Assembly (NCBI GenBank): GCA_018221205.1
Contig: JAAOYF010000046.1
Location: 1,999 to 65,998, forward strand
Source: Candidatus Woesearchaeota archaeon
GTDB taxonomy: Archaea > Nanobdellota > Nanobdellia > Woesearchaeales > WJIZ01
DNA length: 64,000 bases
Reading direction: 5' to 3'
A program made the position numbers and the translations under genes. Shown piece after piece: positions 5,429 to 57,308 of this stretch. Under the pieces are notes generated by a model that did no database searches, was not told the origin of the DNA, and saw nothing but the letters and a program-made list of their open reading frames with translations. The number at the start of each line of letters is the position of its first letter. The first letter of the stretch is position 1.

Positions 5429-5613
5429 ATACTTACAAAATAGAATAGGGTTCTTGATAATACTTACAAATAGGAAAATTTCCAAAACATTTATATAGAG
5501 AGATTGCTAAAAGTACTTACAAAATAGGTTACTTAGTATAGTAATTCGTAGCTTACTTACAAATTAGGTAAAAAATGGAGAAGATTCATACTCAGATACT
5601 TACATATAGGGGG
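5429..5613 (+). promoter_or_regulatory. Array of 5 direct repeats of the motif (A)TACTTACA-N2-5-TAGG upstream of the cassette-1 regulator gene; a sixth degenerate copy, CTTACATTATAGG, lies upstream at 5391-5403
   Basis: Copies at about 5429-5449, 5461-5474, 5514-5536, 5554-5574 and 5597-5613. The same motif recurs upstream of the cassette-2 and cassette-3 regulator genes. Confidence 0.6.
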
Positions 5614-5658
5614 GAGTTAGAATAAGTAGAGGCACTATAGTTGGCTAAACGTAAGGGG

Positions 5659-6237
5659 ATGACAGAGAAAACTCCTGTCTTTGCTAATGAGAGTTCTGTT
5701 TTGCAATTAGTCAACTCTGAATCTGATTCTATTACTGAGTCTCTTGCGTTGATTGAGGAGATATCTAAGAAGCATGGAGTAGATATAGGGCATATCACTG
5801 AGATTCTTGAGCACAAGGACAAATACATTGTTCTTCCTGTAGGTTTGTTCAGGAGTAAACTTGGTCCTTTAGAAGCAGTTGTCGGGTATATGAAAGAAGT
5901 TTTGGACCTTAATCTTTCTCAGATTGCACGTTTATTGAACAGAGATGAGACCACCATATGGACAACCTATCAAAATTCTTGGAAAAAAGGGAAGATCATT
6001 GTTGATCTAGAGCTGAAGGATGTTGATTTTGGTGCTTTGAAGATCAAGAAAGAGAACTTTGTTGTTCCCTTATCTGTTTTTGCCAATAGAGAATTGTCTA
6101 TTCTTGAGGCTTTATGTGTGTACTTACGTGAGAATCATGGTCTGAATTATACTATGTTAGGGAAATTGCTAGAGAGAAATGAACGGACTATCTGGACGGT
6201 AGTCAGCAGAGCAAAGAAAAAGTGGACAGAGAGATAG
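5659..6237 (+). CDS. Cassette-1 regulator, a small protein with two tandem sigma-70 region-4 / HTH_10 (Bat-type)-like HTH units
   Basis: Two repeats match L..LE..V.yl.e..gLsy..iA.LL.RdeRTiWT...RAkKK (LGPLEAVVGYMKEVLDLNLSQIARLLNRDETTIWTTYQNSWKKGK and LSILEALCVYLRENHGLNYTMLGKLLERNERTIWTVVSRAKKKW). An AAGGGG motif sits 4 nt upstream of the ATG at 5659, and the ORF track uses a TTG at 5641. Paralogs lie at 36056 and 46478. Confidence 0.6.
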   Translation: MTEKTPVFANESSVLQLVNSESDSITESLALIEEISKKHGVDIGHITEILEHKDKYIVLPVGLFRSKLGPLEAVVGYMKEVLDLNLSQIARLLNRDETTIWTTYQNSWKKGKIIVDLELKDVDFGALKIKKENFVVPLSVFANRELSILEALCVYLRENHGLNYTMLGKLLERNERTIWTVVSRAKKKWTER

Positions 6238-9200
6238 TCAAGCGGATAGTGCAAGAGAGCAAAGAGATGCATGAATGCTCTCGCTCTAAAGTCAAGCTTA
6301 GCTCTAATCTTTTTGCCAATTATGCGAAGAAGAAGAAAGGAAAGATCTCTGAGGAGGAATATGTCGGCTACCTGAAGAAAAAGCATAACGGCCGCACACT
6401 GGATGAATGGATCACTGAAGCGCATAAGCATGGTGAAGAGACGAACAAAGTGTTCCATCAAGATTTCAATTCTTTGGTGAGTTCTTTATCCAGTCCTCGC
6501 TTCACTATGGCTGCGATTATCTTATTGGCCATCTTCTTCCTGCAGTTCTTCACTCCAGGCATCATTGGCTTTGTTACGTTAGAAGAGGCTAATGTGACGA
6601 TTGAGCAAGAGTTTACAGCAAATGCAACGTTTGTTCTTGACGTAAAGAATATCCGCTATCTTGGCTTGCAAGGATATGCAAGCAATGACTTTTCGGGAAG
6701 GGTTTATTTAGATGATGGTGTGCAGAGATATGTTCTTTTAGATTACCTGAGCAAAGAGCTTAGACAAACAGTTCCTGATGCTACAATTGATTTTGAACTG
6801 GTTAAAATAGATATCTCTGATGAAGTGAAGGGCATCGAAGTCCAGGCTGATTTTGATGATGATTCTTTGGCTTGTACAATTTATACCATCGAGAGTGATT
6901 CTGCGACCAATCTTTGTTATGGGTATTCAGGATGCTGCGCATTCATGAATGTTCCTCAGACTGAAGAGCAATGGGATGAGCCTTTGTATGTAAACAAAGG
7001 GAAGTTCGGTGCTGGAGACAGGAATCTGGTGAAAGCACAAGTCGTTTGGGCAAATTATAGTTTAGATCCAGAGAATGCTTATTTTGATCTTGAATATAGT
7101 GATATTATCGGAGTTCCAGTCAATGTCTATTCACAGCTTAGGTTTGTTGATGAATGTGGAGGTGCCTGTTTAATTCAATCTGCTAATCAAGACCATACTT
7201 TAGTTGTTGAAGTGCATTCAGGAAGTTTGTATCTGTCAAATTACAGCTTCAAAGTTGTCGATAAACCGAATAGTCCGCCAGTCTTTACTCCGGTTCCGAA
7301 TATTACTATCAGCCCTCCACGGCCTTTCATCCTGGATTTGAGAGAGTATCTCTCTGATACTGATGGGGATACCTTAAAATTGAGTTATTTCGATTCTCCT
7401 GGATTGATTATTGATTTTGTTGGTATGAATGCTGTCATCCGGGTTGATGATAACTTTACTGGTAGGACTTTTACTTTTTTCACTGCGAATGATTCTGAGT
7501 TGATCGCTATCTCGAATATCATTGAGATTAGTTTAAGTAAGAATGCGACTGTCATTGAGACTCCTAAAAAGGATATCTTTGTTTCTGGACAAGTTGAGAT
7601 CGGCAAGCCTGTTACCTGGAGCCGGAGAGTAGATGTTGCGGATATTTTTGGAGAGTTCAGAGTGAATATCTCTGGGGAAGCGTATAATGTCACGGTCAAG
7701 AAAGTGTTCAATGAGACTTTTGAAGAAGTCTCAGGGGCCAATTTAGAGGTTGTAGAGGATACATTACGTCGAAATATCGCCCGCTTTAAGGAGGATGTTG
7801 CTGATAGGAGGGTTGCTAAGGCATTTGAGAGGCAGCGAGGTATTTTTAGGGATGAACCTATTGATGATGTTGAACTTGTCGTTATGGACCTTTCTCCTGA
7901 GATTGAGATCAGTTTTGAGACTGATGGTCCAGAAGTTGTTGAGGAGATCATCAGTGAGAGTGTGAAGAGAGTTACCATCAGTTCAACTGTGCATTATACT
8001 GATATTCTTTCTTATGCTGATATCAAAGACAGCCCTCAAAGCAGGATTAAGCTCTATTGGTTGGTTAATGGAAGCAGGCAGATTGTTTCTGATGTTACGT
8101 ATGAGGACAGGAACAATAATTCCCTTATTGACAGGATTTATTGGACTGTCCCTTCTCTCAGTTCTCAGACGTATGAGATCATCTTGATCACAAAAGCAGA
8201 TCATCTGGATGCGAATAGGAGCTTTATTGCAGATATCTATGAGTATGTCAAGGAAAAAGATGGTAATTGGAGTTACGGAATCAATGATTCCCAATATGTA
8301 AGAGTGACTTTTGAGCAGGCCTTGGATAATTCCAAGGATATTACTTTATATGCTCGAAGTTTAGGCAGTTCTTCTGTTGAAGTCTATACAGAGAATAATG
8401 ATACTTTGATCACTTCCTTTACTGATATCTCCTCTGAAGACTGGTATAAAGTCTTTTTGACTGAATTAGAAGGAAGCCATGATGTGTTTGACCTTAGAGT
8501 TGTAGGGGATAGTGTTGAGTTCGATTATATTGTCGATCCGGTCGGGCAGGAGAATGTTTCACAGTGGAACAAGACATTCGATGGAACCGGTGGTAGTGAT
8601 ATGGCCAATTCTATCGCTATAGATTCTAACGATAACATCTATGTTGTCGGTGATGGGACTAATATTGTCAGTAGTACGAGCGAGGGTGATTGGTGGATCA
8701 AAAAATTCAACTCCTCAGGCAGCGAAGATACTACTAACTGGAACAAAAGTATTGATGGCGTAACTGGAAAAGATAGTCCCACATTTGTTGCCCTTGATTC
8801 ACAAGACAATGTCTATGTTGTTGGCTATGGTACTAATCTCTCTTCCAGCTCTTCTAATTGGGACTGGTGGATCAAAAAATTCAACTCCTCAGGTAGCGAA
8901 GATACCACCAATTGGAACAAGACGTTTGACGGAGCAGGAAAGGCTGACCAAGCCAGGATAGTTGTCATAGATTCTAATGATAATATGTATGTAGGTGGAA
9001 GTGGATTTAATATTACTGAATCAAATCAAAAAGATTGGTGGATCAAGAAATTCAATTCTTCAGGCAGCGAGGATACTACAAATTGGAACAAATCATTTGA
9101 AAGTTCTGCAGCAACTGATTATCTTCAATCTCTTGCGATAGATAGCAATAACAATCTCTATGCTGGGGGACAGTTTTCACTCGATTTGCTTATCAAAAAA

Positions 9201-12200
9201 TTCAACTCCTCAGGCAGCGAAGATGCTGTCAATTGGAACAAATCTATTGTGGCAGCTACAGGTTCAGCTTTTTACGGTCTGTTCACTGATTCCAACGACA
9301 ATGTCTATGCAGGAATGTCTTCAAATGTCGTCGGTGTCCAGAGCGAGGATGATTGGTGGATCAAGAAATTCAATTCTTCAGGCAGCGAAGATGTTGTTAA
9401 TTGGAACAAAAGCTTTGATGAGGGAACTGCTTGGGCATATGATTATCTTAACTTCATTGCTGTCGACGCAAATGATAATGTTTTCGCTGTTGGGGATATC
9501 GACACTGGCGCAGCAGGCTATAATGATTGGTGGATCAAAAAATTCAACTCCTCAGGCAGCGAAGATGCTGTCAATTGGAACAAGACTTTCAATGCGGGCA
9601 CGAATAAATATGACAGCGCAACAGGTGTTGCCTTTGACAGCTTGAACAATGTCTATGTTTCGGGCTATGGGCAGAATGTTATCAGCGGCACTTCCAGCTA
9701 TGATTGGTGGATCAAGAAGTTTGAAGGTCATCCCATACTTGATACTTCTGCTCCAACTATACTCTTTGTGAACAAGACTGAAGCGAATGGATCCACTATC
9801 ACTGTAAATTATGCTGAGATCAATGTAAGCATCACAGAACTCAATCTGGATGCATTTACCTGGAATTGGAACGGGACGAATTATACGATGTATGATGATA
9901 GCCTGGTGTTGATGCTCAATTTTGACAATGTCTCGGCTCTTGGTGAGAGCAATACATATGTTATTGATGCGAGCAAGCAAAACAATAATGGGCTAGTGTA
10001 TGGAAATGCCTATCCAAATTCTAGTGGAAAATACAGGGGATCATTCGAATTCGGAGGCAGCAGCTCAGATTTTATCAATTTCAGCTCAAATTCAAGCCTT
10101 GATGACCTCAATAACGGAGGATTGACCTTTTCCGCATGGTTATACTTCAGGTCCAGCGGAGGGTTAGACGTCATTTTCAGTAAAGATGCATGGACCAGCG
10201 GATTGATGACGTTTTATATTTCTGATGGAGGAGCCCGAACGCTCCGGTTTATCAAAGATTCTCCGGATCCAGACGTTCGCGCTGACTGGAGCGGAATTAT
10301 CGATCTCGATGAATGGGACCATTATGTGCTTACCTGGAACGGCAGCAACATATCAAGCTCGATTTCGCTCTACAAAAATGGAGCAGAGATTGCGCCATCA
10401 TCAGAGCAAAACGGAAGTGTTCAAACCTGGTCAGATGCAGAGACAGACTTTCTTCTGGGAAGACAGTTCGACGGATTTATGGACGATATCATGCTCTTCA
10501 ATACATCCCTCTCTGCTTCTAAGGCGAAGCAGCTCTATTACTCTAGCCTACAGAAATACGATGCAAACAAATGGGGTTTCTATTCCAATCAAAGCAGTTT
10601 AGCAGATGGCACTTATACTTATCAAGCATATGTGAATGATAGCTTCGGCAAGGCAAATGCTACTGAGTTAAGGACACTCTATGTCGAGGCAGAAGCTCCC
10701 TCAATCAAATTTGTCAATCTTACTGTCGCCAATGGGACTGTGCACATCAAACCACATATCGAGGCGAATGTCTCTATCATCGCAGACGATTTCAGTGATT
10801 TTATCTGGAACTGGAACGGGACCAATTATACGTTCTATGATGATTCATTATCCTTGATGCTCAATTTCGATAATGTTTCTGCTTTAGGAGAGAATGACAG
10901 CCTGGTTGTCGATACCTCTCCTTATGGTAAAAATGGCACTGCCTACGGCAATGCAACACCAAATGTTACTGGCAGGTTCGGAAGAGCATTTTCTTTTGAT
11001 GGTGATGGAGACTATGTTTCTATGGGAACATCGAGTGTCTATAATTTCACTAATGCATCCAATATCACGATTTTGGTATGGGTTTACGCTTATTCTTTGC
11101 CAAGCTATGGGGAGATCATCAACAAGGGCAATACAGAACCAGGCTCTACCAGACAGAATTATGCTATTCAGAGCCAGGATCAGAATATCTCTTTTTTCTA
11201 TCGAGATAGTGCTAATACTGCTTGGGTGGAATATGTGACAGATGCTAGTGTGCTCTCGACAGGATCTTGGCATCATATCGCCATCACTTACAAATTCGGC
11301 ACAGGAAGCTCTGCTAAGATATACGTCAATGGAGCTGAGACATCTGCAACCTGGAGTGGAGGAACAGGCAATGAGGATCCTATGCAAAATGATGAAGAGC
11401 TCTGGATTGGTGCAGTTGATAATGGTGGTGATGACGTGATAGATGAGGAGTGGACTGGGAGAATAGATGGGGTGCGTATGTATAACCGAAGCCTATCATC
11501 GTCAGAAGTCCAACAACATTATTTCTCTAATCTTCGGAAGTATGACACTGATAAATGGAGTTTCTATTCCAATCAGACCAACCTCACCTTAGGCACCTAT
11601 ACGTTCCAGGCATATGCGAATGATACGTATGATAATCCCAATGCGACTGAATTAAGGACGGTTGAGTATAGGGTGAATCCTTATTATGGGAAATTCAGCC
11701 TTCCTCCGACAACCCACTTTAATGTCTCTGCTGATCTTTCGAATATATGTAATGCCACTTTAGCCATCAATGCTATTGGCATGATTGAGTGGAATAATTG
11801 TGTTGATGCGCGGATTGCTAATTTTGATACGTATGTCAATCTTAGTTTCAACAAAGTAAGTGTTGATCCAGTTAATTTAGACTCAAGCTTCAATAGTTCT
11901 GCTAATATTACTCTCTTTTACGTTAATCTTACTAATCCTATCATCCAAAAAGATGGTGCCTATTGTCCTAGCTGTATCATCTTAAACAATGATGGAAATA
12001 ATATCACGTTCAATGCGAGTTCTTTCTCTTCTTATTCTGCTACTGAGAGAACTAATCTTTCAATCTGGGACCTTTCTGATTCACAGACAAGCTATGCTAA
12101 TTTCACCCAGTTCTATGCGAATTATACGAATGCATCAGGTACGATAATTACTACTGGCTATTGTGAGTTCAGACATAATAAGACAGGAAGATGGGCTGCT

Positions 12201-43854: not shown

Positions 43855-43862
43855 AATGAAAA

Positions 43863-45451: not shown

Positions 45452-45483
45452 TTTTATATATTTCTTCACCATCAGAGGAGATA

Positions 45484-46358: not shown

Positions 46359-46411
46359 GGGGGACATTCGGAGCTACGCTCCTCAATTCCCCTACCGCTG
46401 TTTCTGGTATT

Positions 46412-46484
46412 GTTTACTCATATATATTTACTTTAGGGTAATATTTATAAATAGATATACTTATATGTATATACTAGATGCCTA
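46412..46484 (+). promoter_or_regulatory. Degenerate TACTTA...TAGG motif copies upstream of, and overlapping, the cassette-3 regulator start
   Basis: TTTACTCATATATATTTACTTTAGGGTAATA and ATACTTATATGTATATACTAGATGCCTAGG, the latter spanning the ATG at 46478. Confidence 0.45.
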
Positions 46485-48094: not shown

Positions 48095-48132
48095 GTATCA
48101 AAATGATATATAAAGTATATCAAAATGATATA
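48095..48132 (+). promoter_or_regulatory. Direct repeat (TATCAAAATGATATA x2) in the promoter region of the RHH gene
   Basis: gtatcaaaatgatata at 48095-48110 and gtatatcaaaatgatata at 48115-48132, ending 14 nt upstream of the ATG at 48146. Confidence 0.4.
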
Positions 48133-48145
48133 CTAGTATGCATAG

Positions 48146-48328
48146 ATGAAGAAAAGCGACTTGCTCCACATCCGTGTGGGCAAAGAGATGAAGAAGCAGA
48201 TACAGAAGCTGATAGAGATAGGGCTGTTTTCTACTGAAGCTGAAATCGCACGCGAAGGCATACGAAGCATTCTCCTGAAATATCTGAAAGAGGCTGGTCT
48301 CGAAAAGAAGAATGATAAAAAGAAATAG
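48146..48328 (+). CDS. CopG-family ribbon-helix-helix DNA-binding protein
   Basis: MKKSDLLHIRVGKEMKKQIQKLIEIGLFSTEAEIAREGIRSILLKY matches the CopG pattern (beta-strand; ..ekid.lve.G.f.sRSEaIReAir..l). Confidence 0.55.
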   Translation: MKKSDLLHIRVGKEMKKQIQKLIEIGLFSTEAEIAREGIRSILLKYLKEAGLEKKNDKKK

Positions 48329-51300
48329 GGCTAAGAAGTTCGTCGAAGAAGCTTTAGATAGAGGCCACTCTCTCAAAGATATCAAACTAGTGATGGATAA
48401 GAGAGGATACTCGCGGCAGGAAATCAAACAGGTTGTGCAAGAGTATGAGCATCCGTGGAAAATATCAAACAATACTCTTGCAGTCTTTGTCATTGTGCTA
48501 GCGCTCGGCTCTCTTCTGGGGAATTATTATCTTCTACAATCAATGGAAGCTCCTGAGCCAGAGGTAACAGCTATGGTCAGCATAGCCCGCGCCACTTTCT
48601 GCGTGAATGCGGGACCTACCATCAATACATCAGACTGCAATGCTACTGCCTCAGTCAATACTCCTTATGACTGTGAAATAAATGCCACTGATACAGATAT
48701 CGGAACAGCGTATAATTTTACTGACAATACAACCCTTTTTGATATCAATTCAACAACAGGAGAGATCAATTTCACCCCCACAATCGGAGATATCGGCAGT
48801 TATCACATCAATTTCAGTGTTTTTGACGGCAGCGGCTGCAGCAATGAGTATATATCGAGCATATTCAACCTGACCATCTCGTTGGATTGCGGCAGCAAAC
48901 AAGCCCCTCAATTCACTGACCTTGGAACAACATATAATTTCTCAAGAAAGGAGAATCTCTCGCTCTATATCAACGCAAGTGATCCTGATAATGATAGCAT
49001 CACTATCAATGCCGAATTAGTGAGTTCCAACGCTTACACACCGTTCAATGTCTCGGAAATCCTCAATGGCAACTGGATCAATTTCACTCCCACCATAGCA
49101 CATGTCGGCTGGCACCTGTTCAATATCTCGGTAACAGATAACAGCAGCTGCCAGAATGACACGAGCTGGCAGCTTGTCAATGTCACTGTCTGGGCCAATA
49201 ATTCCGCTCCTCAATATATCGGCTCATCAGGAGATCTAGATTATACGCTGAATGAAGATACCACTGTCAATAATGTCTATAATCTAGACGACTATTTCAA
49301 CGATTCAGATGGAGACTGCCTGAAATATGAGATATCCTATTCAGTAGCCAACCCAATCCTCAATATCGTTGTCAACAACAATGATGATCCACGCGACCTG
49401 AGCAGCTGCCCTTCAGACCATCTGGTGACGCTTATACCTTCTCCAAATCAATTCGGCACTGTGATAGCATTCATCATCGCCAATGACACGTTAAATGTCT
49501 CTGAAATTGTCACGGTCACCTTCACTATCCTCAATGTGGCTGAAGTGATCAGCTTACCTACTCCTAGCAGCGGAGGCGGTGGAGGAGGACCGACGCTGAA
49601 CTTATGTAACGAGCGATGGACCTGTACACCATGGAACCAGAGCGAATGCGTCAATGGATTCATGACCAGGGAATGTGATGATCTCAATGACTGCCACACC
49701 ACGAAGTTCCAGCCGAATGAGACAAAGATATGCCAATATATCGACCACTGCAGTGATGGTGTGAAGAATTTTGATGAGGATGGAGTGGACTGCGGCGGGT
49801 CATGTCAGGCAAGCTGCTCGACCTGTTTCGATGCAGTCATGAACTGCCATAAATTAGTGAATGGAACACAGATCTGTGAAGAAGGTGTGGACTGTGGCGG
49901 ACTTTGTCAGGCCTGTTCATTAGCAGATCTAGTGGGCAAGATCGATCTGGAAAAGGAGCCTTTGAGCCCGACCCAGCAGACCTTCAGATGGCTCATGTTT
50001 TGGATCCTCCTTTTCATCGTATTGGCAATTCTCACCTATTGGACTATCAAGAAGATGCAGCCGCCGAAAAAGAAGAGCGAGCAAGAAGAGGTCAAGAAAT
50101 TCAGCGCACTCTGGTGGCTGAGACTGATACAGCGCCATAGACAGGATGTACGGACGACCCAGCTTGAGCTTATGGCAAGACCGAGCAAACTCACCCTGTT
50201 CTGGGAGAAGGCTACCTTCTTCTGGCCGCGGAAGGCACCGGATTACATCCCAAACCTTGATCAGAAAATCAAAACTCTGCGGAAGAAGGTGAGCAAGAAT
50301 GATAATGAGCATGTCGCCAAGAAGCTTGGAGAGTACATGAAGCTCTGGCTTGCCCATGACTTCAACATAGAATATTCAGCAACTTATGAAGAATTGAGCC
50401 AGGAGATGAGAGAACGGAAGAAGAAAGAGCTTATCCATGGCAAGATTGAACCGTTCTTCGATGATCTGGTGAAAGCAGAGTTCAGCGGACGGCAGATAGC
50501 TGACAAGAAGATGAGAAGTCTTATCACCACCGCCTTGTCTATCATGACCTTCAGGCCCAAGCCGAGGAGGCAGACCCCTGTTGTCGCGAGCATCGTGGTC
50601 ATCCTTGCTTTATTGGGAGCTATGTTCCTGCAGCCTGATATCACTGGATTATTCACGTTTACCCAAGAGCAAAGCATCGATGTCTTTATGCAATTCAATG
50701 CATCTGGCACGCTGCCATTGGATATTATCGGTGCTGACAGCATCAGCATAGACGGCTGGATATCGCAGGATGCAGAGATATATATCTACGCCGGAGACAG
50801 CATTGTCCTGGACAGCTCGTTGCTGAAAAAAGGAAAGACACCGACCAGAACCGATGTCAAGATCCCCTTTACAGAAGGAATAAAGCAGATAGATGCGAAG
50901 ATCGATTATGGGGACAGTGCATGGGATCCTGACAATGACGGCGTGGAACCTATTGAAAATGCTGTCGATGTCAGTGTCAAAGGAAGCCTGTTCAACGGAA
51001 TCGATGATAAGGGCAAGCTCTGTACCTTATGGGAGATCGAGAATGATGCAAAAAGCTTCATCTGCAACGGCAATGTTGACTGCTGCGCACTTCTTGAGAC
51101 CCTTCCTGAAAACGATGAGTGGGACGAGCCTTTATTCTTGAGTTATGGCAAACACGGCGCGAAAGAGGAAAACATTGTCTGGGCAAGGATATATTATATA
51201 AATTACAACCTTGATCCAGAAAATGCCTATTCAGAGATTGTCGAGTCTGAACAGGAATCTATCAGCGTCTACTTCGAGCCCTCAACTATAGGCTTCGAGA

Positions 51301-54300
51301 AAGAATGCGTCGAAAGCTGCTCTTTCACCTTTGATCGGAAAGAGTTGAAGATAGAACTCATGAAAGGAGAGCTATTCATCGAAAAAGTCCATTATGGCAA
51401 GCGTATAAATGCACCTCCCCTGGTAAGGGCACTTCCGAATATCAGCTCTGACATCAACAAGGAGATCATCATCAATCTCAAGGATTACATAGAAGATGCT
51501 GAGAACGATTCTTTGAGCTATGCGATAACAGGCCTCAGAGATTTCATCATCGCCTATGAAGGAGATCTTCTGCGTATCACTCCTCCTGAGGATTATGAAG
51601 GACAATCTACAGTATTCATCATCGCCAATGACTCTACTTCTATCGGTGTCTCTAATCTCTTTGATATCACTGTAAGGAAGATCTTGGAGGAAACTGTCCA
51701 AGAGAAAGCTGAAGTCGGCAAGCCGGTGAAATGGATCAAGAAAGTGCATGCTTACAACAAGTCAATCATCAAGCTTGATCACGTCCCCATGAACGTCACT
51801 GTACAAGGCATTGAAGGCCTCTCAAAGAGGACACTGCACAAGATCACTGTCAAAGACCAAGATCGATTCATCCCGCTCCAAAATTATCTGCGAGCACCTC
51901 AAGTTGTCGGTGTGGCAGCTGCTGAGGATGACCTCCTCCCTGCTGAACTCATGATAGATGAAGATATCCAAGAAATCGAGATAGAGTATTATACAGAAGC
52001 GCCTGAATTGATCGAAGAAGAAGTGACGACATCACTCAAGAAAGTGGTCATCAGTTCTCCTGTCCATTATGAGAACATCACTGCCTTTACTGCTATCGAT
52101 GACAAGCCTCGTTCTGCCATCCATCTCTTCAGGACAACTGACGGCATACGGGAGAAAGTCAGTTTCGAGGCATTTGATGAGAATGCCAACGGTCTGATCG
52201 ATAAGATAGAATGGATTGTCCCGCACCTGAGCAACCAGACTTATGAAGTGGAGATCTCGGTATTGAATGTGCAGAGCTATCCTACTGTCGGAGGGATATG
52301 GGAGGTACGATTCAACACCACAGGCAAGGCAAACCTGACGATAAGCGCGATCAATAACACACTCTACGGAAGCTCGTTGCCGAATGATCTCCTCCCTGAT
52401 GAGCTGCAATGCGGCTTCACTGATCTGAACTATACATGGGAGGGCAATGATGTCACCTACAATGATTATGAATGCAACCAGACAGGATATTGGAAGGTCA
52501 TTGTTCTGACTGAAGGGGTCCATAACCAGCAGTTCACTTTCGGTGATGCTGTCGCGTATGCAAACAATCTCGCAAGCGTGAACGGCACAGGCGGGAATCT
52601 GACTGTCTGGGACGACTCCGACTTAGGAGAGGTCTTTGCTACAGACAATGTCACGTTCTCTGTCAACTATACCAACGGATTCCAGATATCAAATGGCACA
52701 TGCGAAGTCGAGTTCAATCTCACCGGCAGCTATCAGAACAAGACGAATATGACCTATAATGGGGTAGCGTCTCCCTGGACCTACAACAGAAGTATCCCTT
52801 ACAAAGGCACGAGCTATTTCCATGTCATCTGCCAGAATGCGACCATGCCGACACTCAATGTGACAGACAGTGTCTACATCAACAATACCTCACCTACCTT
52901 CAATAAATCCGCAGGCAAGCTTCCTTCTCTCGTTTGTGTCGAGGATACACCCTGCGAATACAATATGAGCAAATATGTCATCGATCCAGACCTTAATGAT
53001 GATTTCACTTTTGACTACGGTGCTTTATCGATACGAAACCTTACCGAGCATCCGGACTGCAGCAATTGCTGGGTATTCAATTTCGATCATGGTAAGTTTA
53101 TCGTCAATGTCACCACCTCTGACCATGCTAATCAGACGCCTTGGAGCCCTGTCGTGAGTGTCCTTGATTCTGATGGGGGCTCTGATTCTGCTACTGTTGA
53201 TATCTCAATGAGTGAGGTGAATGATTATCCAGTCTTCACTAATCCATCTGGGATAAGCCTCACTGATGCGACTGCAGAATCTGTCTATAATTATGATGTC
53301 GATGCGACAGATGAAGAAGATATCACGACAACAGATTATAATTTCACCATACTCAGCTGCCAGCAGGTGTATCTTTCAGACTGCTCTGCACTGAACGTCA
53401 GCATCAACAGGACAACAGGCATTATCTCAGGAACGCCCGGAACGTTTGATCCCGGTAACTATACACTTAATCTGAGCACCACTGATAATGATACTGCTAT
53501 AACCTGGAAGCTAGTCAATCTGTCTGTCATCGATGTCAATAACGCGCCTGTCTTTGATCTTGTCTGCGCCGGCTCCCGGTCTGCCCTTGAAGACAGCGCA
53601 TTCAATTGCACGATCAATGCATCTGACGCTGATGCCGATCCTTTGACCTTCGGTTCCAATTACAGTTGGTTCACTCTTGATAGCACTGGAGCGAGAAGCG
53701 TCTTAGCGAACTTCACCCCGACCAATGCAGAAGTCGGCAATTATACCATCAAGCTGAATGTGACTGACGGATTGCTGACAACAAGCACGTTCATCAATTT
53801 CTCGGTGAACAATACAAATGATGTCCCTTATATGCTTAACATCACCAATCAGCTGGCTGTTGTCAACATCGACTTCAGGAGGAATGTAAGCGGGCATGAC
53901 GATGACCTGTATCAGCCCTATAATATCTTCAACGCAGTCGGGGATACGTTGAGCTTCACCATCAACCTCAGTTTTATGAGCATCACGAAAATCAACGCTA
54001 CTTCGGCGACGATGAATTTCACTCCAGCATCAGGCCAGGAAGGGAACTACTCTGTCCTGGTCAATGTCTCAGACAACGCAGGAACGTATGGCATCACCAC
54101 ATTCAATCTGACCATCAGGAACAACACTGCCCCTATCATCAAATGGATCTGTGACAATGACAGGATCATCCAGGAGGAGGAAGTATTCAAATGCTGGGTG
54201 AATGCCACTGATATCGATGGAGACAATTTCACGTTCTCGACGAACGGCACGTGGTTCAATATCAATGCAACATCTGGAAATGTCAGTATGATCCTCAATG

Positions 54301-57300
54301 ACAGCGATGTGGGCAATTACACCATCAGGTTCACGGCGACAGATTCCTGGGGAAGCTCAAGCCTCAACGACACCAATTTCACTGTCAATAACACACCTGA
54401 ATTCCCCTATATGTTCATCCCAAACATCAATGCGACACAGAACGAGACCTTGCTGTATAATCTCAGCGCAAATGTGACAGATGAGGACCAGAATACGATC
54501 TTCGGTGATATACTCCATTTCTATTCAAATGGAAGCTTCTCGGGGAACTTCTCTGTTAATGAATTGACTGGCTTGATGAATTTCACCCCTGACGGGTCAG
54601 ATGGAGGAATTTTCTATCTGAACATCACAGTAAATGACAGCGCGGGATTAATAAGCACACAGACGATCATCCTCACTGTCGAATTGATCAATTACCCACC
54701 TGAACTGGACACTATCTGCGACAACCTGACCAGCGCCAGGGAAGATGTATTCTTCAGCTGCACAGTCAATGCTACAGATGCCAACCCTAGCGATAATCTC
54801 ACTTTCAATGTGAGCATCATCGGAGGAGGCAGTTGGTTCAACATCAATGCATCAGGATATGTGAACTTCACCCCGATTAATGCGAATGTCGGCAACCATA
54901 CCCTCAACTTCACTGTCTATGATGGAGTGCTCTGGGATTATCGACTCATCAATTTCTCAGTGAACAACACAAATGACGCCCCTGTGTTTGATGCCAATCC
55001 GAATCTTAATGGGACAGAAGACATTCTTTTCAACTATACGCTGAATGTGAGCGATGACGATTTATCAGTGCCTGTAGGTGAGAACCTTTCCTATTTCTCG
55101 AACAGCACGTTCTTTACTGTCAATCAATCTACCGGACAGATTGTTTTCATACCGAACAGCAGCCAGGTCGGGAATTATTCTATCAAGTTCAATGTCTCAG
55201 ACCTGAACGGAAGCTTTGATACCCTTATCAGAAACTTCACCATCAGTTTCTATGATGACTTCCCTGTATTGCAATTCATACCCAATCTCATCGTCGAGGA
55301 ATTATCGCAGCTGTATCATGACGTCAACGCGACTGACGAGGAAGATGCTGAAAACCTGCTGAGATTCAGGACCAACGCCTCTGCTGCCCTTTTTGTCATC
55401 AATGTGCTTACTGGAGAGATCAATTTCACTGCGAATGCATCACAGGCAGGCATACATCATATCAACTTAACGGTCAACGATACTATAGGCAGAGAGACCT
55501 CTCAAGTGTTCAACCTGACGGTCACCTTATTCAATTTCGATCCCAATATCACTACAGTCTATCCTTATGGAACCCCTAAAGTGAGCTATACTGAATTCTC
55601 GTTCGCCAACAGATCAGATTTTCCGACCAATATCACCTCGATCAACCTTGCGGAAAATAATACCTATCTCTTCAATGTCTCTATCCAAGACGGCAATGGC
55701 GATAACATCAACTACAGTTGGTATAAGAATGGGACGCTTGTCTACAGTTCGAACGAAACATCGAGCTTCAACTATTCAGTGGGCCTGACAGATGAGGGAT
55801 TGCGGAACATCACCGTGATCATCTCAGACGGTCGTGGAGGCACTGACAGATTCAGCTGGAATGCGACAGTGAACAATTCAAACAGAAAGCCCTTATTCGG
55901 TGTGAAGGAATATGATGAAGAATCAGAGTTTTCCGGAACAGAGAATGACACCAATGTCACATCTGGAGGCATCATCCTTGCTGTCAACGGCAGCGTATTC
56001 GCCAATGCCGGCGATTATGTCTCCCTATCTATCGATATGGGTGCATTGGTGAGCAGTTTCTATAATCCTATCGGCTATACGACGATTGAGTGGGTCGCAA
56101 CCACCCCCGCAGACACGAGTGTCACAGCACAGACACGGACTTCTGACAATGGTGTGAGCTGGGGCAACTGGAGTTCCCCTTACAGCTCGGGATCGAGGAT
56201 CACCTCAACGAACACGACTTATATCCAGTATAAGCTGAATTACCAGACGAACAATACTGCTTCAACTCCAAATGTCACGACTGTACGCATCAGACATATC
56301 ATCCCTGATCTGCTCGCTGACCAGGGAGATACCAATCCAAACTGGATTGACCTTGATGATTATTTCATTGATATCGATACTGAAGATACACTACAATTCA
56401 CAGTGACGGGCTACACCAATATCCAATTTTCTATCAGCAGCAGTACCCATGTCGTCGGTATCACCATCCCCAACACGGCGACAGGCGAAGAGGTCATCTA
56501 TTTCACTGTAAATGACTCGTATGATACTGAAGTGAGCAATAATATCACGATAACCATCAATGAAACACCCCAGCAATCTGCTGTTGAAATCGTGACTGTC
56601 ACCACCACTAAGAGCAAGACCGTCATTAAATTCAGGCCTCGGGATGTTGAAGTGTATGAACCACTGCAGATCCTTGTGCCTCAGCATCTGACGAGTTTTG
56701 ATGATGAGACCATGGTGGCTCCGATCAAGCTTTCGAATATGGGGGAATCACTGCTGACCGGCATAACTTTATCTGCCGGTACCAATGCTGAAGGAGTGGA
56801 ATTATGGTTCAGCCGGAATACCTTCGACAGTCTCAGTCCAGGAACAGAATTTGAAACTGACCTTTTCATGAGATGGACAGGCCTTATTGCAGAATTTGAC
56901 GTCATCGTCAATGCAACCTCGATTGACCCTGTCTTCACTGATTCTGCCATTGTCTCGGTAACAGGCATCAAGCGTGTCGAGAGCAACCGCAGTATCGTCG
57001 AGGACCATATCTCTTTTGTTCGCGATCTCCTTGCGAATAATCCACGCTGTCTGGAGTTGAATGAGCTGGTTGAAGAATCAGAGAAGGCATTAGCGGCAGG
57101 CGACCTGACGAAAGCACGGAACCTCTGGAACTTTGTGATCAATGGTTGCCGAACCTTATTGGAATCTGTGCAGGACGTTGAACAATCCACACCCATTCAG
57201 CAGAGAGAAGGAGATTTGTTCAAGATCGTCTCAGGAGTACTGCTCTTGCTGCTGTTCATCACTGCAATCATCATCCTGGCACTTGCAAGAAGAAAGAAAT

Positions 57301-57308
57301 CAATGTAA
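48312..57308 (+). CDS. Giant-3, a 2998-aa polytopic surface protein built as two modules, [TM1, cadherin-like Ig domains, Cys-rich, TM2] and [sequon-free loop, TM3 + DITG motif, giant-1-like N-domain, ~9 cadherin-like (He_PIG/CADG-type) repeats, C-terminal domain, TM4 + RRKK]
   Basis: Continuous 9-kb ORF. Hydrophobic helices at nt ~48481-48531, 49989-50045, 50581-50631 and 57226-57288. Repeats bounded by N-[DNT]-[AY]-P-[VEIY]-[FM] run 53170-55800. The 50700-52280 block is homologous to giant-1 6780-8200. Protein ends ...ILALARRKKSM. Confidence 0.85.
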   Translation: MIKRNRAKKFVEEALDRGHSLKDIKLVMDKRGYSRQEIKQVVQEYEHPWKISNNTLAVFVIVLALGSLLGNYYLLQSMEAPEPEVTAMVSIARATFCVNAGPTINTSDCNATASVNTPYDCEINATDTDIGTAYNFTDNTTLFDINSTTGEINFTPTIGDIGSYHINFSVFDGSGCSNEYISSIFNLTISLDCGSKQAPQFTDLGTTYNFSRKENLSLYINASDPDNDSITINAELVSSNAYTPFNVSEILNGNWINFTPTIAHVGWHLFNISVTDNSSCQNDTSWQLVNVTVWANNSAPQYIGSSGDLDYTLNEDTTVNNVYNLDDYFNDSDGDCLKYEISYSVANPILNIVVNNNDDPRDLSSCPSDHLVTLIPSPNQFGTVIAFIIANDTLNVSEIVTVTFTILNVAEVISLPTPSSGGGGGGPTLNLCNERWTCTPWNQSECVNGFMTRECDDLNDCHTTKFQPNETKICQYIDHCSDGVKNFDEDGVDCGGSCQASCSTCFDAVMNCHKLVNGTQICEEGVDCGGLCQACSLADLVGKIDLEKEPLSPTQQTFRWLMFWILLFIVLAILTYWTIKKMQPPKKKSEQEEVKKFSALWWLRLIQRHRQDVRTTQLELMARPSKLTLFWEKATFFWPRKAPDYIPNLDQKIKTLRKKVSKNDNEHVAKKLGEYMKLWLAHDFNIEYSATYEELSQEMRERKKKELIHGKIEPFFDDLVKAEFSGRQIADKKMRSLITTALSIMTFRPKPRRQTPVVASIVVILALLGAMFLQPDITGLFTFTQEQSIDVFMQFNASGTLPLDIIGADSISIDGWISQDAEIYIYAGDSIVLDSSLLKKGKTPTRTDVKIPFTEGIKQIDAKIDYGDSAWDPDNDGVEPIENAVDVSVKGSLFNGIDDKGKLCTLWEIENDAKSFICNGNVDCCALLETLPENDEWDEPLFLSYGKHGAKEENIVWARIYYINYNLDPENAYSEIVESEQESISVYFEPSTIGFEKECVESCSFTFDRKELKIELMKGELFIEKVHYGKRINAPPLVRALPNISSDINKEIIINLKDYIEDAENDSLSYAITGLRDFIIAYEGDLLRITPPEDYEGQSTVFIIANDSTSIGVSNLFDITVRKILEETVQEKAEVGKPVKWIKKVHAYNKSIIKLDHVPMNVTVQGIEGLSKRTLHKITVKDQDRFIPLQNYLRAPQVVGVAAAEDDLLPAELMIDEDIQEIEIEYYTEAPELIEEEVTTSLKKVVISSPVHYENITAFTAIDDKPRSAIHLFRTTDGIREKVSFEAFDENANGLIDKIEWIVPHLSNQTYEVEISVLNVQSYPTVGGIWEVRFNTTGKANLTISAINNTLYGSSLPNDLLPDELQCGFTDLNYTWEGNDVTYNDYECNQTGYWKVIVLTEGVHNQQFTFGDAVAYANNLASVNGTGGNLTVWDDSDLGEVFATDNVTFSVNYTNGFQISNGTCEVEFNLTGSYQNKTNMTYNGVASPWTYNRSIPYKGTSYFHVICQNATMPTLNVTDSVYINNTSPTFNKSAGKLPSLVCVEDTPCEYNMSKYVIDPDLNDDFTFDYGALSIRNLTEHPDCSNCWVFNFDHGKFIVNVTTSDHANQTPWSPVVSVLDSDGGSDSATVDISMSEVNDYPVFTNPSGISLTDATAESVYNYDVDATDEEDITTTDYNFTILSCQQVYLSDCSALNVSINRTTGIISGTPGTFDPGNYTLNLSTTDNDTAITWKLVNLSVIDVNNAPVFDLVCAGSRSALEDSAFNCTINASDADADPLTFGSNYSWFTLDSTGARSVLANFTPTNAEVGNYTIKLNVTDGLLTTSTFINFSVNNTNDVPYMLNITNQLAVVNIDFRRNVSGHDDDLYQPYNIFNAVGDTLSFTINLSFMSITKINATSATMNFTPASGQEGNYSVLVNVSDNAGTYGITTFNLTIRNNTAPIIKWICDNDRIIQEEEVFKCWVNATDIDGDNFTFSTNGTWFNINATSGNVSMILNDSDVGNYTIRFTATDSWGSSSLNDTNFTVNNTPEFPYMFIPNINATQNETLLYNLSANVTDEDQNTIFGDILHFYSNGSFSGNFSVNELTGLMNFTPDGSDGGIFYLNITVNDSAGLISTQTIILTVELINYPPELDTICDNLTSAREDVFFSCTVNATDANPSDNLTFNVSIIGGGSWFNINASGYVNFTPINANVGNHTLNFTVYDGVLWDYRLINFSVNNTNDAPVFDANPNLNGTEDILFNYTLNVSDDDLSVPVGENLSYFSNSTFFTVNQSTGQIVFIPNSSQVGNYSIKFNVSDLNGSFDTLIRNFTISFYDDFPVLQFIPNLIVEELSQLYHDVNATDEEDAENLLRFRTNASAALFVINVLTGEINFTANASQAGIHHINLTVNDTIGRETSQVFNLTVTLFNFDPNITTVYPYGTPKVSYTEFSFANRSDFPTNITSINLAENNTYLFNVSIQDGNGDNINYSWYKNGTLVYSSNETSSFNYSVGLTDEGLRNITVIISDGRGGTDRFSWNATVNNSNRKPLFGVKEYDEESEFSGTENDTNVTSGGIILAVNGSVFANAGDYVSLSIDMGALVSSFYNPIGYTTIEWVATTPADTSVTAQTRTSDNGVSWGNWSSPYSSGSRITSTNTTYIQYKLNYQTNNTASTPNVTTVRIRHIIPDLLADQGDTNPNWIDLDDYFIDIDTEDTLQFTVTGYTNIQFSISSSTHVVGITIPNTATGEEVIYFTVNDSYDTEVSNNITITINETPQQSAVEIVTVTTTKSKTVIKFRPRDVEVYEPLQILVPQHLTSFDDETMVAPIKLSNMGESLLTGITLSAGTNAEGVELWFSRNTFDSLSPGTEFETDLFMRWTGLIAEFDVIVNATSIDPVFTDSAIVSVTGIKRVESNRSIVEDHISFVRDLLANNPRCLELNELVEESEKALAAGDLTKARNLWNFVINGCRTLLESVQDVEQSTPIQQREGDLFKIVSGVLLLLLFITAIIILALARRKKSM

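What the first reader, a model, noticed from the sequence alone, without database searches (positions are those of the whole stretch)
5429..57308. Three paralogous cassettes, each a tandem-HTH regulator directly followed by a giant surface protein gene
Each giant ORF (6222-33725, 36607-42864 and 48312-57308) is immediately preceded, with overlap or ATGA coupling, by a ~160-190-aa paralog at 5659, 36056 and 46478. Each paralog contains two sigma-70 region-4 / HTH_10-like HTH units (L..LE..V.yl....gLsy..iA.LL.Rd.RTvWT...RAkKK). A dedicated sigma-r4-like tandem-HTH regulator fused into an operon-like unit with giant adhesin or S-layer-like genes, repeated three times with shared upstream repeats, looks like a modular expression system for giant surface proteins that I do not recognise as described. 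The divergent giant payloads (LamG/SBBP vs Kelch/dockerin vs cadherin-like) behind a conserved front-end suggest a swappable cassette family.
Basis: partly seen in the sequence, partly recalled or inferred. Interest (0 to 1): 0.85.

Follow-up and report, generated by a model that had tools for sequence, protein, structure and literature searches.

The report
Tandem-HTH regulators coupled to archaeal surface-protein genes
A tiny symbiotic (DPANN) archaeon carries three copies of a small double DNA-binding protein, each with its own repeated DNA docking sites and placed directly in front of a cell-surface protein gene; the family is large and apparently undescribed, and in other genomes it is fused to the inner end of giant surface proteins.

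Summary
The window comes from a Candidatus Woesearchaeota contig. It holds three paralogs (30-35% identical), each with two sigma-70 region-4-like HTH units; all pass Pfam's Sigma70_r4_2 cut-off.

H1 overlaps a 9167-aa LamG/FG-GAP giant, and H2 is ATGA-coupled to a 2085-aa giant. The third cassette was misread. H3 is ATGA-coupled to a 375-aa membrane protein, and the 2998-aa giant has its own 60-aa partner gene and operator.

- **Family size:** 2223 clusters at 50% identity.
- **Neighbours:** in 38 related DPANN loci the next gene nearly always encodes an exported or membrane-anchored protein, of at least 900 aa in 14 of 36.
- **Operator:** arrays of a 17-bp palindrome, TACTTAC-N3-GTAAGTA, lie upstream (51 of 79 hits in 3.2% of the sequence), typically 6 nt after a TATA box. 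Operator symmetry tracks the symmetry of the two recognition helices.
- **Fusions:** the module is fused behind a C-terminal transmembrane helix in 16 of the top 149 representatives. The N-terminal cytoplasmic domain seen in seven of them recurs in two window proteins.

Best reading: an autoregulatory DNA-binding module dedicated to surface-protein operons, possibly membrane-coupled. I found no description of it. It is a new variant of a known kind.

The parts
5388..5613 (+). Operator array 1: six same-orientation copies of TACTTACAWAWTAGGTA, starting at 5388, 5430, 5461, 5514, 5554 and 5597. A TATA-like TTTATATA lies at 5490-5497.
   Evidence: the same five-copy array lies upstream of the ortholog in L010
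5659..6237 (+). H1, a tandem sigma-r4-like HTH protein (192 aa from ATG 5659; 198 aa from TTG 5641). The unit-1 recognition helix is RDETTIWTT and the unit-2 helix is RNERTIWTV.
   Evidence: 53% identical to the L010 ortholog
6222..33725 (+). Giant 1 (9167 aa). It has a conserved cytoplasmic N-tail domain (aa 1-95, 6222-6506), a membrane anchor, then at least 10 LamG (Laminin_G_3) domains, FG-GAP propellers, DUF2341, Big_13 and CARDB. There is no C-terminal transmembrane helix.
   Evidence: N-tail homology
34664..35875 (+). Gene B (403 aa): signal peptide, CARDB-like region, C-terminal transmembrane helix plus KKKGKKK. A B-like gene directly precedes the HTH gene in at least 10 related loci. 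Gene D is a paralog.
35886..36053 (+). Operator array 2: three copies, starting at 35886, 35991 and 36037. The proximal copy ends 2 nt before the H2 ATG. The 46-nt spacing of the last two copies is conserved in L001-L003 and L007.
36056..36610 (+). H2, a tandem sigma-r4-like HTH protein (184 aa; NCBI locus tag GOV09_05745).
36607..42864 (+). Giant 2 (2085 aa): plain signal peptide, Kelch repeats and MopE-like Cys motifs. It occupies a variable slot; orthologous loci hold a 77-79-aa or 467-aa gene there, or none.
43189..46308 (+). Genes C, D, E and F (221, 392, about 137-150 and 274 aa). All are predicted exported or membrane proteins. They form the conserved syntenic partners downstream of H2 orthologs.
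46444..46474 (+). H3 promoter and operator. TATA TTTATAAA lies at 46444-46451, followed by a 6-nt gap and a canonical left half-site TACTTAT at 46458 with a divergent right half. An 18-bp near-palindrome, ATATACTTATATGTATAT, lies at 46455-46472.
   Evidence: read; the geometry matches the mode found
46478..46951 (+). H3, a tandem sigma-r4-like HTH protein (157 aa). Unit 1 is divergent (GRSKQGVWQS) and unit 2 is canonical (RDQRTVWTV).
46948..48075 (+). M3 (375 aa), ATGA-coupled to H3. It has the conserved N-tail helical hairpin (aa 1-100), a transmembrane helix, an ectodomain of about 230 aa, and a C-terminal transmembrane helix followed by basic residues.
   Evidence: An N-tail HMM built only from fused giants hits it at E = 1e-11. 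AF2 pLDDT 92
48096..48132 (+). Two copies of TATCAAAATGATATA, each an inverted repeat, upstream of the 60-aa gene. The same pair is conserved behind a TATA box in L004.
48146..48328 (+). A 60-aa gene whose sequence pattern looks ribbon-helix-helix-like, without HMM support. It overlaps the giant-3 start by 17 nt and is 75% identical to its L004 counterpart. It is a separate, second kind of small-gene-plus-giant unit.
48312..57308 (+). Giant 3 (2998 aa): a cytoplasmic N-terminus of about 55 aa, a transmembrane helix, Big_9/cadherin-like/PKD/He_PIG domains, and a C-terminal transmembrane helix plus RRKK. It is not a direct partner of H3.

Best explanation
H1, H2 and H3 belong to a large, uncurated DPANN family of sequence-specific DNA-binding proteins built from two sigma-70 region-4-like HTH units. 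I propose that one polypeptide acts as a pseudo-dimer, with each unit reading one half of a 17-bp site (family consensus TACTTAC-N3-GTAAGTA; in this genome TACTTACAWAWTAGGTA). Arrays of 2-10 such sites sit in front of the regulator's own gene. The promoter-proximal site typically begins 6 nt after the TATA box, so it covers roughly -16 to +1.

The regulator gene is the first gene of an operon. Its next gene is translationally coupled to it and encodes a membrane-anchored or secreted surface protein, often a giant one. The most likely function is therefore autoregulatory control of surface-protein operons, with repression at the proximal site and cooperative binding along the array.

- **Shown here:** the fold and family; the site and its position; the gene coupling; the conservation.
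- **Inferred:** that the protein binds these sites; the sign of regulation; co-transcription.
- **Further inference:** natural fusions to giant surface proteins, and a shared cytoplasmic N-tail domain, suggest the module works at or with the membrane protein it is encoded beside.
For: **Fold and family**
- Sigma70_r4_2 scores above the curated cut-off in all three proteins.
- The AF2 model has pLDDT 86.9.

**Family size**
- 2223 representatives at 50% identity reach E <= 1e-3, and 969 reach E <= 1e-30.

**Site specificity**
- In the window the motif occurs only upstream of H1 and H2.
- In 38 loci, 51 of 79 matches lie in the 500 nt upstream of the HTH gene, which is 3.2% of the sequence (binomial p = 6e-56).
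- The reverse test started from the DNA. Among 120 metagenome loci holding the exact 17-mer, 32 encode an HTH unit. In all 32 the site lies 81-309 nt upstream, in the direction of the gene.

**Promoter geometry**
- The gap from TATA box to site is 5-9 nt in 14 of 18 cases, with a mode of 6.
- H3 in the window has the same geometry.

**Symmetry covariation**
- Loci with perfect palindromes (L015, L017, L023, L028, L029) have near-identical recognition helices in both units (core R[DN]DRTIWTC).
- H1, H2 and their orthologs, whose sites are asymmetric, have different helices (RD[HE]TTIWTT against RDDRTVWTV).
- A single-unit member (L037) has five palindromic sites matching the consensus half-sites with at most one mismatch.

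**Coupling**
- The HTH gene overlaps the next gene in 23 loci, and 9 of these are exact ATGA overlaps.
- The downstream proteins are nearly all exported or membrane-anchored.

**Conservation**
- Cassette 1 (array, H1 and a giant with the same N-tail) recurs in L010. There the regulator is 53% identical but the giant's N-terminus only 26%.

**Precedent**
- EnfR/Tfx are archaeal r4-like HTH regulators that bind a pseudo-palindrome over the promoter (PMC10570040).
Against: - No binding, expression or transcript data exist. Everything rests on sequence.
- In the window itself the H1 and H2 promoters are not clear. The only good TATA box upstream of H1 is 16 nt, not 6, from a site. No TATA box is evident near the H2 sites.
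- About 17 of 38 loci have no recognisable site upstream. In most of these the HTH gene sits directly behind a B-like gene.
- The symmetry covariation rests on few independent evolutionary events.
- The minimal family members (133-148 aa) have no sensor domain, so a pure repressor model does not say what relieves repression.
- 88 of the 120 exact-match metagenome loci show no HTH gene. These could be chance matches, contig ends, other targets, or limits of my small HMM.
- I could not inspect the model coordinates, so the pseudo-dimer geometry is untested.
Confidence: 0.65

Rival explanations
1. Membrane-coupled signalling, which extends the best explanation more than it replaces it. The tandem-HTH module would be the cytoplasmic output of the surface protein itself. 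In fused versions it is the C-terminal tail behind a transmembrane helix. In split versions such as H1/giant 1 and H3/M3 it would dock on the conserved N-terminal cytoplasmic helical hairpin. The state of the surface protein (export, clustering on a host cell, or cleavage) would then set how much regulator is free. That would be analogous to ToxR-type transmembrane regulators, sigma/anti-sigma pairs, or regulated intramembrane proteolysis.
For: - Natural fusions exist. The L016 ORF (1313 aa) is verified at DNA level, and 16 of the top 149 representatives (652-5919 aa) are fusions. In those inspected the module (four units in 15, two in one) follows a short hydrophobic segment and a polybasic stretch; seven of the 16 also begin with the N-tail and a membrane anchor.
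- The L016 fusion gene has variant sites 6 nt after a TATA box in its own promoter.
- An HMM built only from the N-tails of fused giants hits window M3 (E = 1e-11), the L010 giant (1.6e-7) and window giant 1 (1.1e-4). It hits the downstream proteins of L030, L021 and L006 more weakly.
- The N-tail is confidently predicted as a helical hairpin running into the transmembrane helix (pLDDT 92).
- Membrane-bound regulators of archaeal surface structures are known (ArnR/ArnR1, PMC6396743; survey in PMC10269533).
Against: - There is no direct evidence that the two parts interact.
- Giant 2 and several other partners have a plain signal peptide and no N-tail.
- The presence of an N-terminal extension on the regulator does not correlate with the presence of an N-tail on the partner.
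Confidence: 0.25
2. The regulator is mainly an activator. The upstream arrays would act as activating sites needed to fire, or to sustain, transcription of very long surface-protein genes. The proximal site would not block RNA polymerase.
For: - Most sites in the arrays lie upstream of the TATA box and have none of their own. L017 has seven perfect copies spaced 39-49 nt apart.
- In L082 and L153 the sites lie upstream of surface-protein genes with no regulator gene in between.
Against: The most constant feature is a site 6 nt downstream of the TATA box. In characterised archaeal systems that position blocks polymerase recruitment; this rests on general knowledge of archaeal repressors such as MDR1, LrpA and Phr, not on a test here.
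Confidence: 0.3
3. DNA-to-membrane tethering. The module would anchor the gene locus to the membrane, through the fusion or through the N-tail, to aid co-translational insertion of very long proteins. Its main role would not be to regulate initiation.
For: - Fusion of a sequence-specific DNA-binding domain to the cytoplasmic end of giant membrane proteins.
- The sites lie at the gene's own promoter.
Against: - Many partners are small, from 77 to 300 aa.
- The fixed spacing from the TATA box points to control of initiation.
Confidence: 0.07
4. Mobile-element machinery. The HTH would be a transposase-type or recombination-directionality DNA-binding protein, the palindromes would be recombination or terminal sites, and the cassettes would move as units.
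For: - Weak sub-threshold hits to transposase-type HTH families (HTH_23, HTH_38, HTH_Tnp_ISL3).
- The payload varies at a syntenic position.
Against: - The window cassettes contain no transposase, integrase or recombinase gene.
- In the window the sites occur only 5' of the regulator genes and never flank the payload.
- Cassette 1 and the B-H2-C-F synteny are stably inherited between genomes.
Confidence: 0.03

Closest known systems
Tfx/EnfR family of archaeal regulators (TON_1525 EnfR, PDB 8HNO; MTH0916 Tfx)
   Different: EnfR has one HTH plus an acidic alpha+beta C-terminal domain and forms a homodimer. The proteins here have two HTH units in one chain (one or four in relatives) and no such C-terminal domain. 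The profile search of solved-structure sequences did not retrieve EnfR. Their targets are surface-protein genes, not metabolic genes.
ECF sigma factor / anti-sigma factor pairs
   Same: The HTH resembles ECF region 4.2 (RTVWTVxxRAxKKL compared with GTVKSRLxRARxxL, the latter recalled from memory). The gene order is also similar: a small r4-bearing protein directly followed by a single-pass membrane protein with a cytoplasmic N-terminal helical domain and a large outside domain.
   Different: There is no sigma region 2, and archaeal RNA polymerase does not use sigma factors. The protein is r4+r4, not r2+r4. The N-tail gave no anti-sigma structural match.
Transmembrane transcription regulators (ToxR, CadC; archaeal ArnR/ArnR1)
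   Same: The fused relatives carry a DNA-binding domain and transmembrane helices in one protein. ArnR/ArnR1 are membrane-bound and control archaeal surface structures (PMC6396743; survey in PMC10269533).
   Different: In the fused relatives the DNA-binding module is C-terminal, behind an ectodomain of up to about 5500 aa, and is of the sigma-r4 type. The three window proteins are soluble, split versions. I did not find sigma- or DPANN-type members mentioned in the survey text.
LuxR/GerE/NarL-type HTH regulators
   Different: GerE (PF00196) gave no Pfam hit even at E <= 10. LuxR-type proteins dimerise through separate domains, whereas here the two HTH units are in one chain.
MarA/Rob-type (AraC family) two-HTH monomers
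   Same: They work in a similar way: one polypeptide carries two HTH units that read the two halves of an asymmetric site of about 20 bp (general knowledge).
   Different: The HTH fold family is unrelated, and sequence or fold searches found no similarity.
Giant surface proteins of DPANN archaea (SPEARE-type, e.g. SVXNc_0300 of Nanohaloarchaeota)
   Same: Both are membrane-anchored surface proteins of about 9000 aa with Ig-like or lectin-type repeats, in episymbiotic archaea with small genomes (PMC10266531).
   Different: That paper describes a VirB4/TraG-like ATPase context and, in the passages I read, mentions no dedicated HTH partner or operator. The giants in this window are LamG/FG-GAP, Kelch and cadherin-like.

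Membership tests
Pfam Sigma70_r4_2 (PF08281) domain | Whole-protein score above the curated gathering cut-off of 25.7 bits | tested here: met
   H1 scores 28.3, H2 31.5 and H3 38.2 bits. Two matched stretches are reported in H1 and H3.
Sigma-70 family sigma factor (including ECF) | Presence of region 2, which binds core RNA polymerase and the -10 element | tested here: not met
   No Sigma70_r2 hit even at E <= 10. The NCBIfam sigma models match only their C-terminal r4 part and score far below their cut-offs.
Sigma-70 family sigma factor (including ECF) | The host uses a bacterial-type, sigma-dependent RNA polymerase | tested here: not met
   The source is Candidatus Woesearchaeota, an archaeon. 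All 33 related genome loci are archaeal.
Tfx/EnfR archaeal regulators | A single N-terminal r4-like HTH followed by an acidic alpha+beta C-terminal domain; forms a homodimer | tested here: not met
   The architecture here is two HTH units with no C-terminal domain. Only the HTH aligns to 8HNO (51 residues). The profile search of solved-structure sequences did not retrieve it.
HTH_10 (PF04967, haloarchaeal Bat-type) | Score above the cut-off of 23.1 bits | tested here: not met
   13.8-13.9 bits, E about 0.05.
DUF134 (PF02001) | Score above the cut-off of 27 bits | tested here: not met
   21.7 and 19.3 bits.
LuxR/GerE (PF00196) | Sequence match to the GerE model | tested here: not met
   Absent from the hit lists at E <= 10. 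There is fold-level similarity only.
Autoregulated operator-regulator module | A repeated, specific DNA site concentrated at the regulator's own promoter and conserved in orthologs | tested here: met
   plus the reverse search.
Autoregulated operator-regulator module | The protein binds the site and changes transcription | not testable with these tools
   This needs gel-shift or footprinting assays and transcription assays.
Transmembrane transcription regulator | A DNA-binding domain and a transmembrane segment in one polypeptide | tested here: not met
   H1, H2 and H3 have no hydrophobic segment. The feature is met only by relatives: L016, L027 and 16 of the top 149 representatives.
Sigma/anti-sigma-like partner pair | The cytoplasmic domain of the downstream membrane protein binds the r4-bearing protein | not testable with these tools
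   No complex prediction was available. The N-tail fold is a generic helical hairpin.

The most novel reading that the evidence does not exclude
The tandem sigma-r4 module would be the cytoplasmic read-out of the surface protein it is encoded with. In many DPANN genomes it is fused behind the C-terminal transmembrane helix of giant adhesin-like proteins. In this window it would be the detached version, docking on the conserved N-terminal cytoplasmic hairpin of giant 1 and M3. Host contact, export status or cleavage of the giant protein would then feed back directly on transcription of surface-protein operons. This would be a one-protein (or two-protein) signalling path from outside to gene in archaea that otherwise have few regulators. 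It would also be an archaeal counterpart of sigma/anti-sigma or Notch-type signalling.
Probability: 0.25. Interest if true: 0.85.

Novelty: new variant of a known kind. Interest (0 to 1): 0.7.

Why it matters
DPANN archaea live attached to other cells. They have tiny genomes and few recognisable regulators, yet they spend a large share of their coding capacity on giant surface proteins thought to mediate host contact. How those genes are controlled is unknown.

This work defines four things:
- a large lineage-specific regulator family (more than 2000 clusters at 50% identity);
- its probable DNA site and the promoter layout around it;
- a testable reading rule, in which each HTH unit reads one half-site;
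- a physical link to the surface proteins, through natural fusions and a shared cytoplasmic domain.

Together these make regulation of DPANN host-interaction genes directly testable, through binding assays, metatranscriptome 5' ends and complex prediction. They also give a sequence handle, the palindrome, for finding the regulon in any DPANN genome. Finally, the family shows a sigma-factor DNA-binding domain reused as an ordinary or membrane-tethered regulator in archaea.

Tried and rejected
- **Related-locus search with the 18-sequence alignment:** it failed for lack of a conserved stretch. A closer 12-sequence alignment worked.
- **First palindrome scan:** it used an 18-bp pattern with the wrong centre and gave only noise. 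A 17-bp pattern, 7+3+7, corrected this.
- **Homolog search with the giant-1 N-terminus:** no hits.
- **Homolog search with M3:** it returned only M3 itself. The word-index search is too insensitive for these divergent proteins, so the N-tail link had to be made with a local HMM.
- **Rfam scan of the window:** nothing. **tRNA scan:** nothing.
- **Pfam on the 60-aa protein upstream of giant 3 and on the N-tails:** nothing significant. The ribbon-helix-helix label for the 60-aa protein therefore rests only on its sequence pattern.
- **The 324-aa ORF at 33712-34686:** rejected as a gene. It is antisense to a PIN-domain toxin-antitoxin insertion.
- **Juxtamembrane module of the fused giants:** it has no counterpart in the window, so gene B followed by H2 is not simply a split version of those fusions.
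- **Motif as general archaeal promoter element:** rejected, because in the window it occurs only upstream of H1 and H2.
- **Chance adjacency and mobile-element readings:** considered and rejected (see the rival explanations).


Full report
**Source and layout**

The H2 protein is identical to NCBI GOV09_05745 of a Candidatus Woesearchaeota archaeon, on a 75-kb contig. An archaeal pre-PUA/PUA protein elsewhere in the window fits this origin. Positions 5.4-57.3 kb form one island of cell-surface genes, all on the + strand.

**Checking the observation**

The three giant ORFs are there: 9167, 2085 and 2998 aa. Giant 1 carries at least 10 Laminin_G_3 domains, FG-GAP propellers, DUF2341, Big_13 and CARDB. 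Giant 2 has Kelch repeats and MopE-type Cys motifs. Giant 3 has Big_9, cadherin-like, PKD and He_PIG domains.

The three small proteins are true paralogs. Identity is 30-35% (BLASTP E 3e-41 and 1e-20), and each contains an internal duplication. A tblastn search finds no further copy in the window. All three exceed Pfam's curated cut-off for Sigma70_r4_2, and none has a region-2 hit. NCBIfam sigma models match only their r4 end and score far below their cut-offs.

- H1 overlaps giant 1 by 16 nt.
- H2 and giant 2 share ATGA.
- H3 shares ATGA with a 375-aa membrane protein, M3 (46948-48075), not with giant 3. A 60-aa gene (48146-48328) follows and overlaps the start of giant 3.

Giant-3 orthologs in L004 and L009 follow gene F directly. 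In L004 the 60-aa gene (75% identical) and the same TATCAAAATGATA operator pair precede it, and H3 and M3 are absent from both loci. Cassette 3 is therefore two independent units.

**Is the pairing more than chance?**

A word-index search found 16 relatives. A full HMM search found 2223 representatives at 50% identity, 969 of them at E <= 1e-30. A scan of GTDB species genomes gave 33 loci. All are DPANN (Woese-, Pace- or Nanoarchaeia), although some records carry a 'Methanosarcinales' label.

In 38 loci in total, the ORF after the HTH gene usually overlaps it. There are 23 overlaps, 9 of them exact ATGA. In every case examined but one, that ORF encodes a protein with an N-terminal signal peptide or membrane anchor. 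It is at least 900 aa, or runs off the locus beyond that length, in 14 of 36 cases. The figure for other genes in the same loci is 29 of 323 (Fisher p = 9e-6).

The other partners are 77-470 aa. So the constant feature is 'surface or exported protein', not 'giant'.

Synteny adds two points:
- L010 is the ortholog of cassette 1. H1 is 53% identical there, while the giant's N-terminus is only 26% identical (E 5e-23).
- H2 orthologs lie in the same B-H2-...-C-D-E-F cluster, but the gene directly after them is a 77-79-aa or 467-aa gene, or absent. Giant 2 therefore fills a variable slot.

**The DNA sites**

Seven of the nine TACTTAC heptamers in the 64 kb lie there. The same motif, with the same 45-46-nt spacing, precedes H2 orthologs in L001-L003 and L007. 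A five-copy array precedes the H1 ortholog in L010.

Across the family the site is a 17-bp palindrome, TACTTAC-N3-GTAAGTA, present in arrays of 2-10 copies. Allowing up to 3 mismatches, 51 of 79 matches in 590 kb lie in the 500 nt upstream of the HTH gene. That is 3.2% of the sequence (p = 6e-56).

Where a consensus archaeal TATA box (TTTAWAWA) precedes a site, the gap is 5-9 nt in 14 of 18 cases and exactly 6 nt in 8. That places the site at about -16 to +1. H3 in the window has this layout: TATA at 46444-46451, a 6-nt gap, then TACTTAT.

I also ran the test in reverse, starting from the DNA. Of these, 32 encode an HTH unit, and in all 32 the site lies 81-309 nt upstream in the direction of the gene. 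Of the 18 loci with two or more copies, 13 have the gene, and 2 of the other 5 are cut by a contig end. In L082 and L153 the sites lie directly upstream of surface-protein genes with no regulator gene between. This suggests a regulon of surface-protein genes. The remaining single-copy loci cannot be interpreted.

**One unit, one half-site**

- Loci with perfect palindromes (L015, L017, L023, L028, L029) encode proteins whose two recognition helices are nearly identical (core R[DN]DRTIWTC).
- H1, H2 and their orthologs have a degenerate right half-site (TTAGGTA in place of GTAAGTA). Their unit 1 has changed (RD[HE]TTIWTT) while unit 2 stays canonical (RDDRTVWTV). H3 has a canonical unit 2, a canonical left half-site, and both a divergent unit 1 and a divergent right half.
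- A single-unit member exists: L037 (93 aa) has five near-consensus palindromic sites and is followed by a 3319-aa giant. Four-unit members also exist.

The number of independent events behind this correlation is small, and I could not inspect the model coordinates.

**Link to the membrane**

In L016 a continuous 1313-aa ORF runs as follows: a cytoplasmic N-terminal helical region, a membrane anchor, a large ectodomain, a short hydrophobic segment, RRKRKKK, and then two HTH units. L027 ends the same way. Among the top 149 representatives, 16 are such fusions (652-5919 aa), and 15 of them carry four units. The L016 fusion gene has variant sites in its own promoter, one of them 6 nt after a TATA box.

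Seven of the fused giants share an N-terminal cytoplasmic domain of about 95 aa. An HMM built only from these seven hits window M3 (E = 1e-11), the L010 giant (1.6e-7) and window giant 1 (1.1e-4) (alignment). A wider model also weakly hits the partners of L030, L021 and L006.

So the two window proteins directly behind H1 and H3 carry the same cytoplasmic domain as giants that have the HTH module fused to their other cytoplasmic end. This is a fusion-based ('Rosetta stone') argument for a functional or physical link. It is not proof of one.

**Mechanism**

The best-supported reading is an autoregulatory DNA-binding module dedicated to surface-protein operons. The protein would bind the palindrome arrays at its own promoter. 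The proximal site lies where archaeal repressors block polymerase recruitment; this rests on general knowledge and on the EnfR precedent (PMC10570040). Translational coupling would tie the regulator's level to that of the surface protein.

The status of each step is:
- **Shown:** the family, the site, the geometry, the coupling and the conservation.
- **Inferred:** binding, the sign of regulation and co-transcription.

There are three weak points:
- The H1 and H2 promoters in this window are not clearly defined.
- Many loci lack sites.
- The minimal proteins have no sensor domain, so something else must modulate them.

The membrane-coupled model supplies such a modulator and is the most novel reading that remains open.

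**Comparison with what is known**

| Known system | Relation to this family | Source |
|---|---|---|
| Tfx/EnfR | Closest by fold and by working mode, but the architecture differs and the profile search of solved-structure sequences did not retrieve EnfR | |
| Sigma factors | Not a member: no region 2, and the host is an archaeon | |
| ToxR-type and ArnR-type transmembrane regulators | The fused relatives qualify, but with an unusual C-terminal r4 module behind a giant ectodomain | PMC10269533, PMC6396743 |
| Giant DPANN surface proteins | Known, but described without such a partner | PMC10266531, |

Literature searches for the family, the pairing and the site sequence found nothing. The library does not cover subscription journals.

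**Verdict**

This is a real, widespread and apparently undescribed regulator-operator-surface-protein module. I rate it a new variant of a known kind, with interest 0.7.

Noticed in passing
window 33729-34565 (- strand); repeats at about 34617-34650: A three-gene insertion lies between giant 1 and gene B: a PIN_2-domain toxin (33729-34142, E 1e-18), an 86-aa ORF, and a 52-aa antitoxin-like ORF. It is absent from the syntenic loci L001, L004 and L007, where the giant overlaps B directly. Two copies of ACAAGTAATTACTT, containing the 12-bp palindrome AAGTAATTACTT, lie in the shared intergenic region next to a TATA box. The 324-aa + strand ORF at 33712-34686 is a spurious antisense ORF.
   Followed up: partly
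window 35902-35950 and 46310-46360: A roughly 50-nt element, GAGATTTTTGCCCGyTC...CACTyTAAAAATCTCGTAAAATGC, is more than 90% identical between the regions upstream of H2 and H3. It can form a hairpin (GAGATTTTT/AAAAATCTC). In each copy a second hairpin follows that is conserved in shape but not in sequence. There are only two copies in the window and no Rfam match.
   Followed up: partly
window giant 1 aa ~113-120, M3 aa ~113-121, gene C aa ~39-46; downstream proteins in L005-L033: A short motif directly after the N-terminal membrane anchor, (L/I)TG(F/Y)(V/A)V(L/F), recurs in most surface proteins next to the HTH genes. Examples are PGIIGFVTLEE, DITGQITFSV and GLTGFATTD. It may be a sorting or processing signal.
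   Followed up: no
window 36281-36297 (inside the H2 coding sequence); L007 at +225 from the HTH start: An operator-like sequence, TTCTTACACCTTAAGTA (2 mismatches to the palindrome), lies inside the H2 gene. The scan also found a match (at most 3 mismatches) at the same offset, +225, in the L007 ortholog. It could be an inherited coincidence of the codons for (F/Y)LH(L/I)K(Y/F), or an intragenic site.
   Followed up: no
window 48096-48328; L004 12300-12700: There is a second kind of unit pairing a small gene with a giant gene. A 60-aa protein (ribbon-helix-helix-like by sequence pattern, no Pfam hit) overlaps the giant-3 start. It is preceded by two TATCAAAATGATA inverted repeats. Protein (75% identity) and repeats are conserved in L004, which appears to carry two tandem copies of the small gene.
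   Followed up: partly
window 2388-5377: A cluster of toxin-antitoxin and defence-type genes lies just upstream of cassette 1: a winged-helix protein plus a DUF2204 nucleotidyltransferase (2388-3658), a MazE-type antitoxin plus a ParE toxin (3855-4386), and a nucleotidyltransferase with an overlapping 147-aa ORF (HEPN-like by position only; no Pfam hit) (4393-5377).
   Followed up: partly
window 58005-61118: A MoxR AAA+ ATPase, a DUF58 protein and a VWA/BatA protein form a Bat-like operon immediately after the surface island. Whether it relates to the surface proteins was not examined.
   Followed up: no
L012, L013, L024, L034, L035 (genes directly after the HTH gene): A conserved family of secreted proteins of about 240-270 aa, with the motif TQN.RWKG(F/Y)VGN(V/I)(S/T)G...L.D...(S)(L/I)(Y/F)DW....GE(I/V)YATR, is a recurrent partner of the HTH gene. 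It was not scanned against any family library.
   Followed up: no
L017 positions -526 to -310 relative to the HTH start: Six perfect copies of TACTTACATTGTAAGTA are spaced 39-49 nt apart, about four helical turns. Only a further, 1-mismatch copy at -183 lies next to a TATA box. The regular spacing suggests cooperative or higher-order binding.
   Followed up: no
L073 5437-5489: Two perfect palindromes lie upstream of a 350-aa ORF with a winged-helix-like N-terminus, and no family HTH gene is nearby. It may be a regulon member that is not a surface protein.
   Followed up: no
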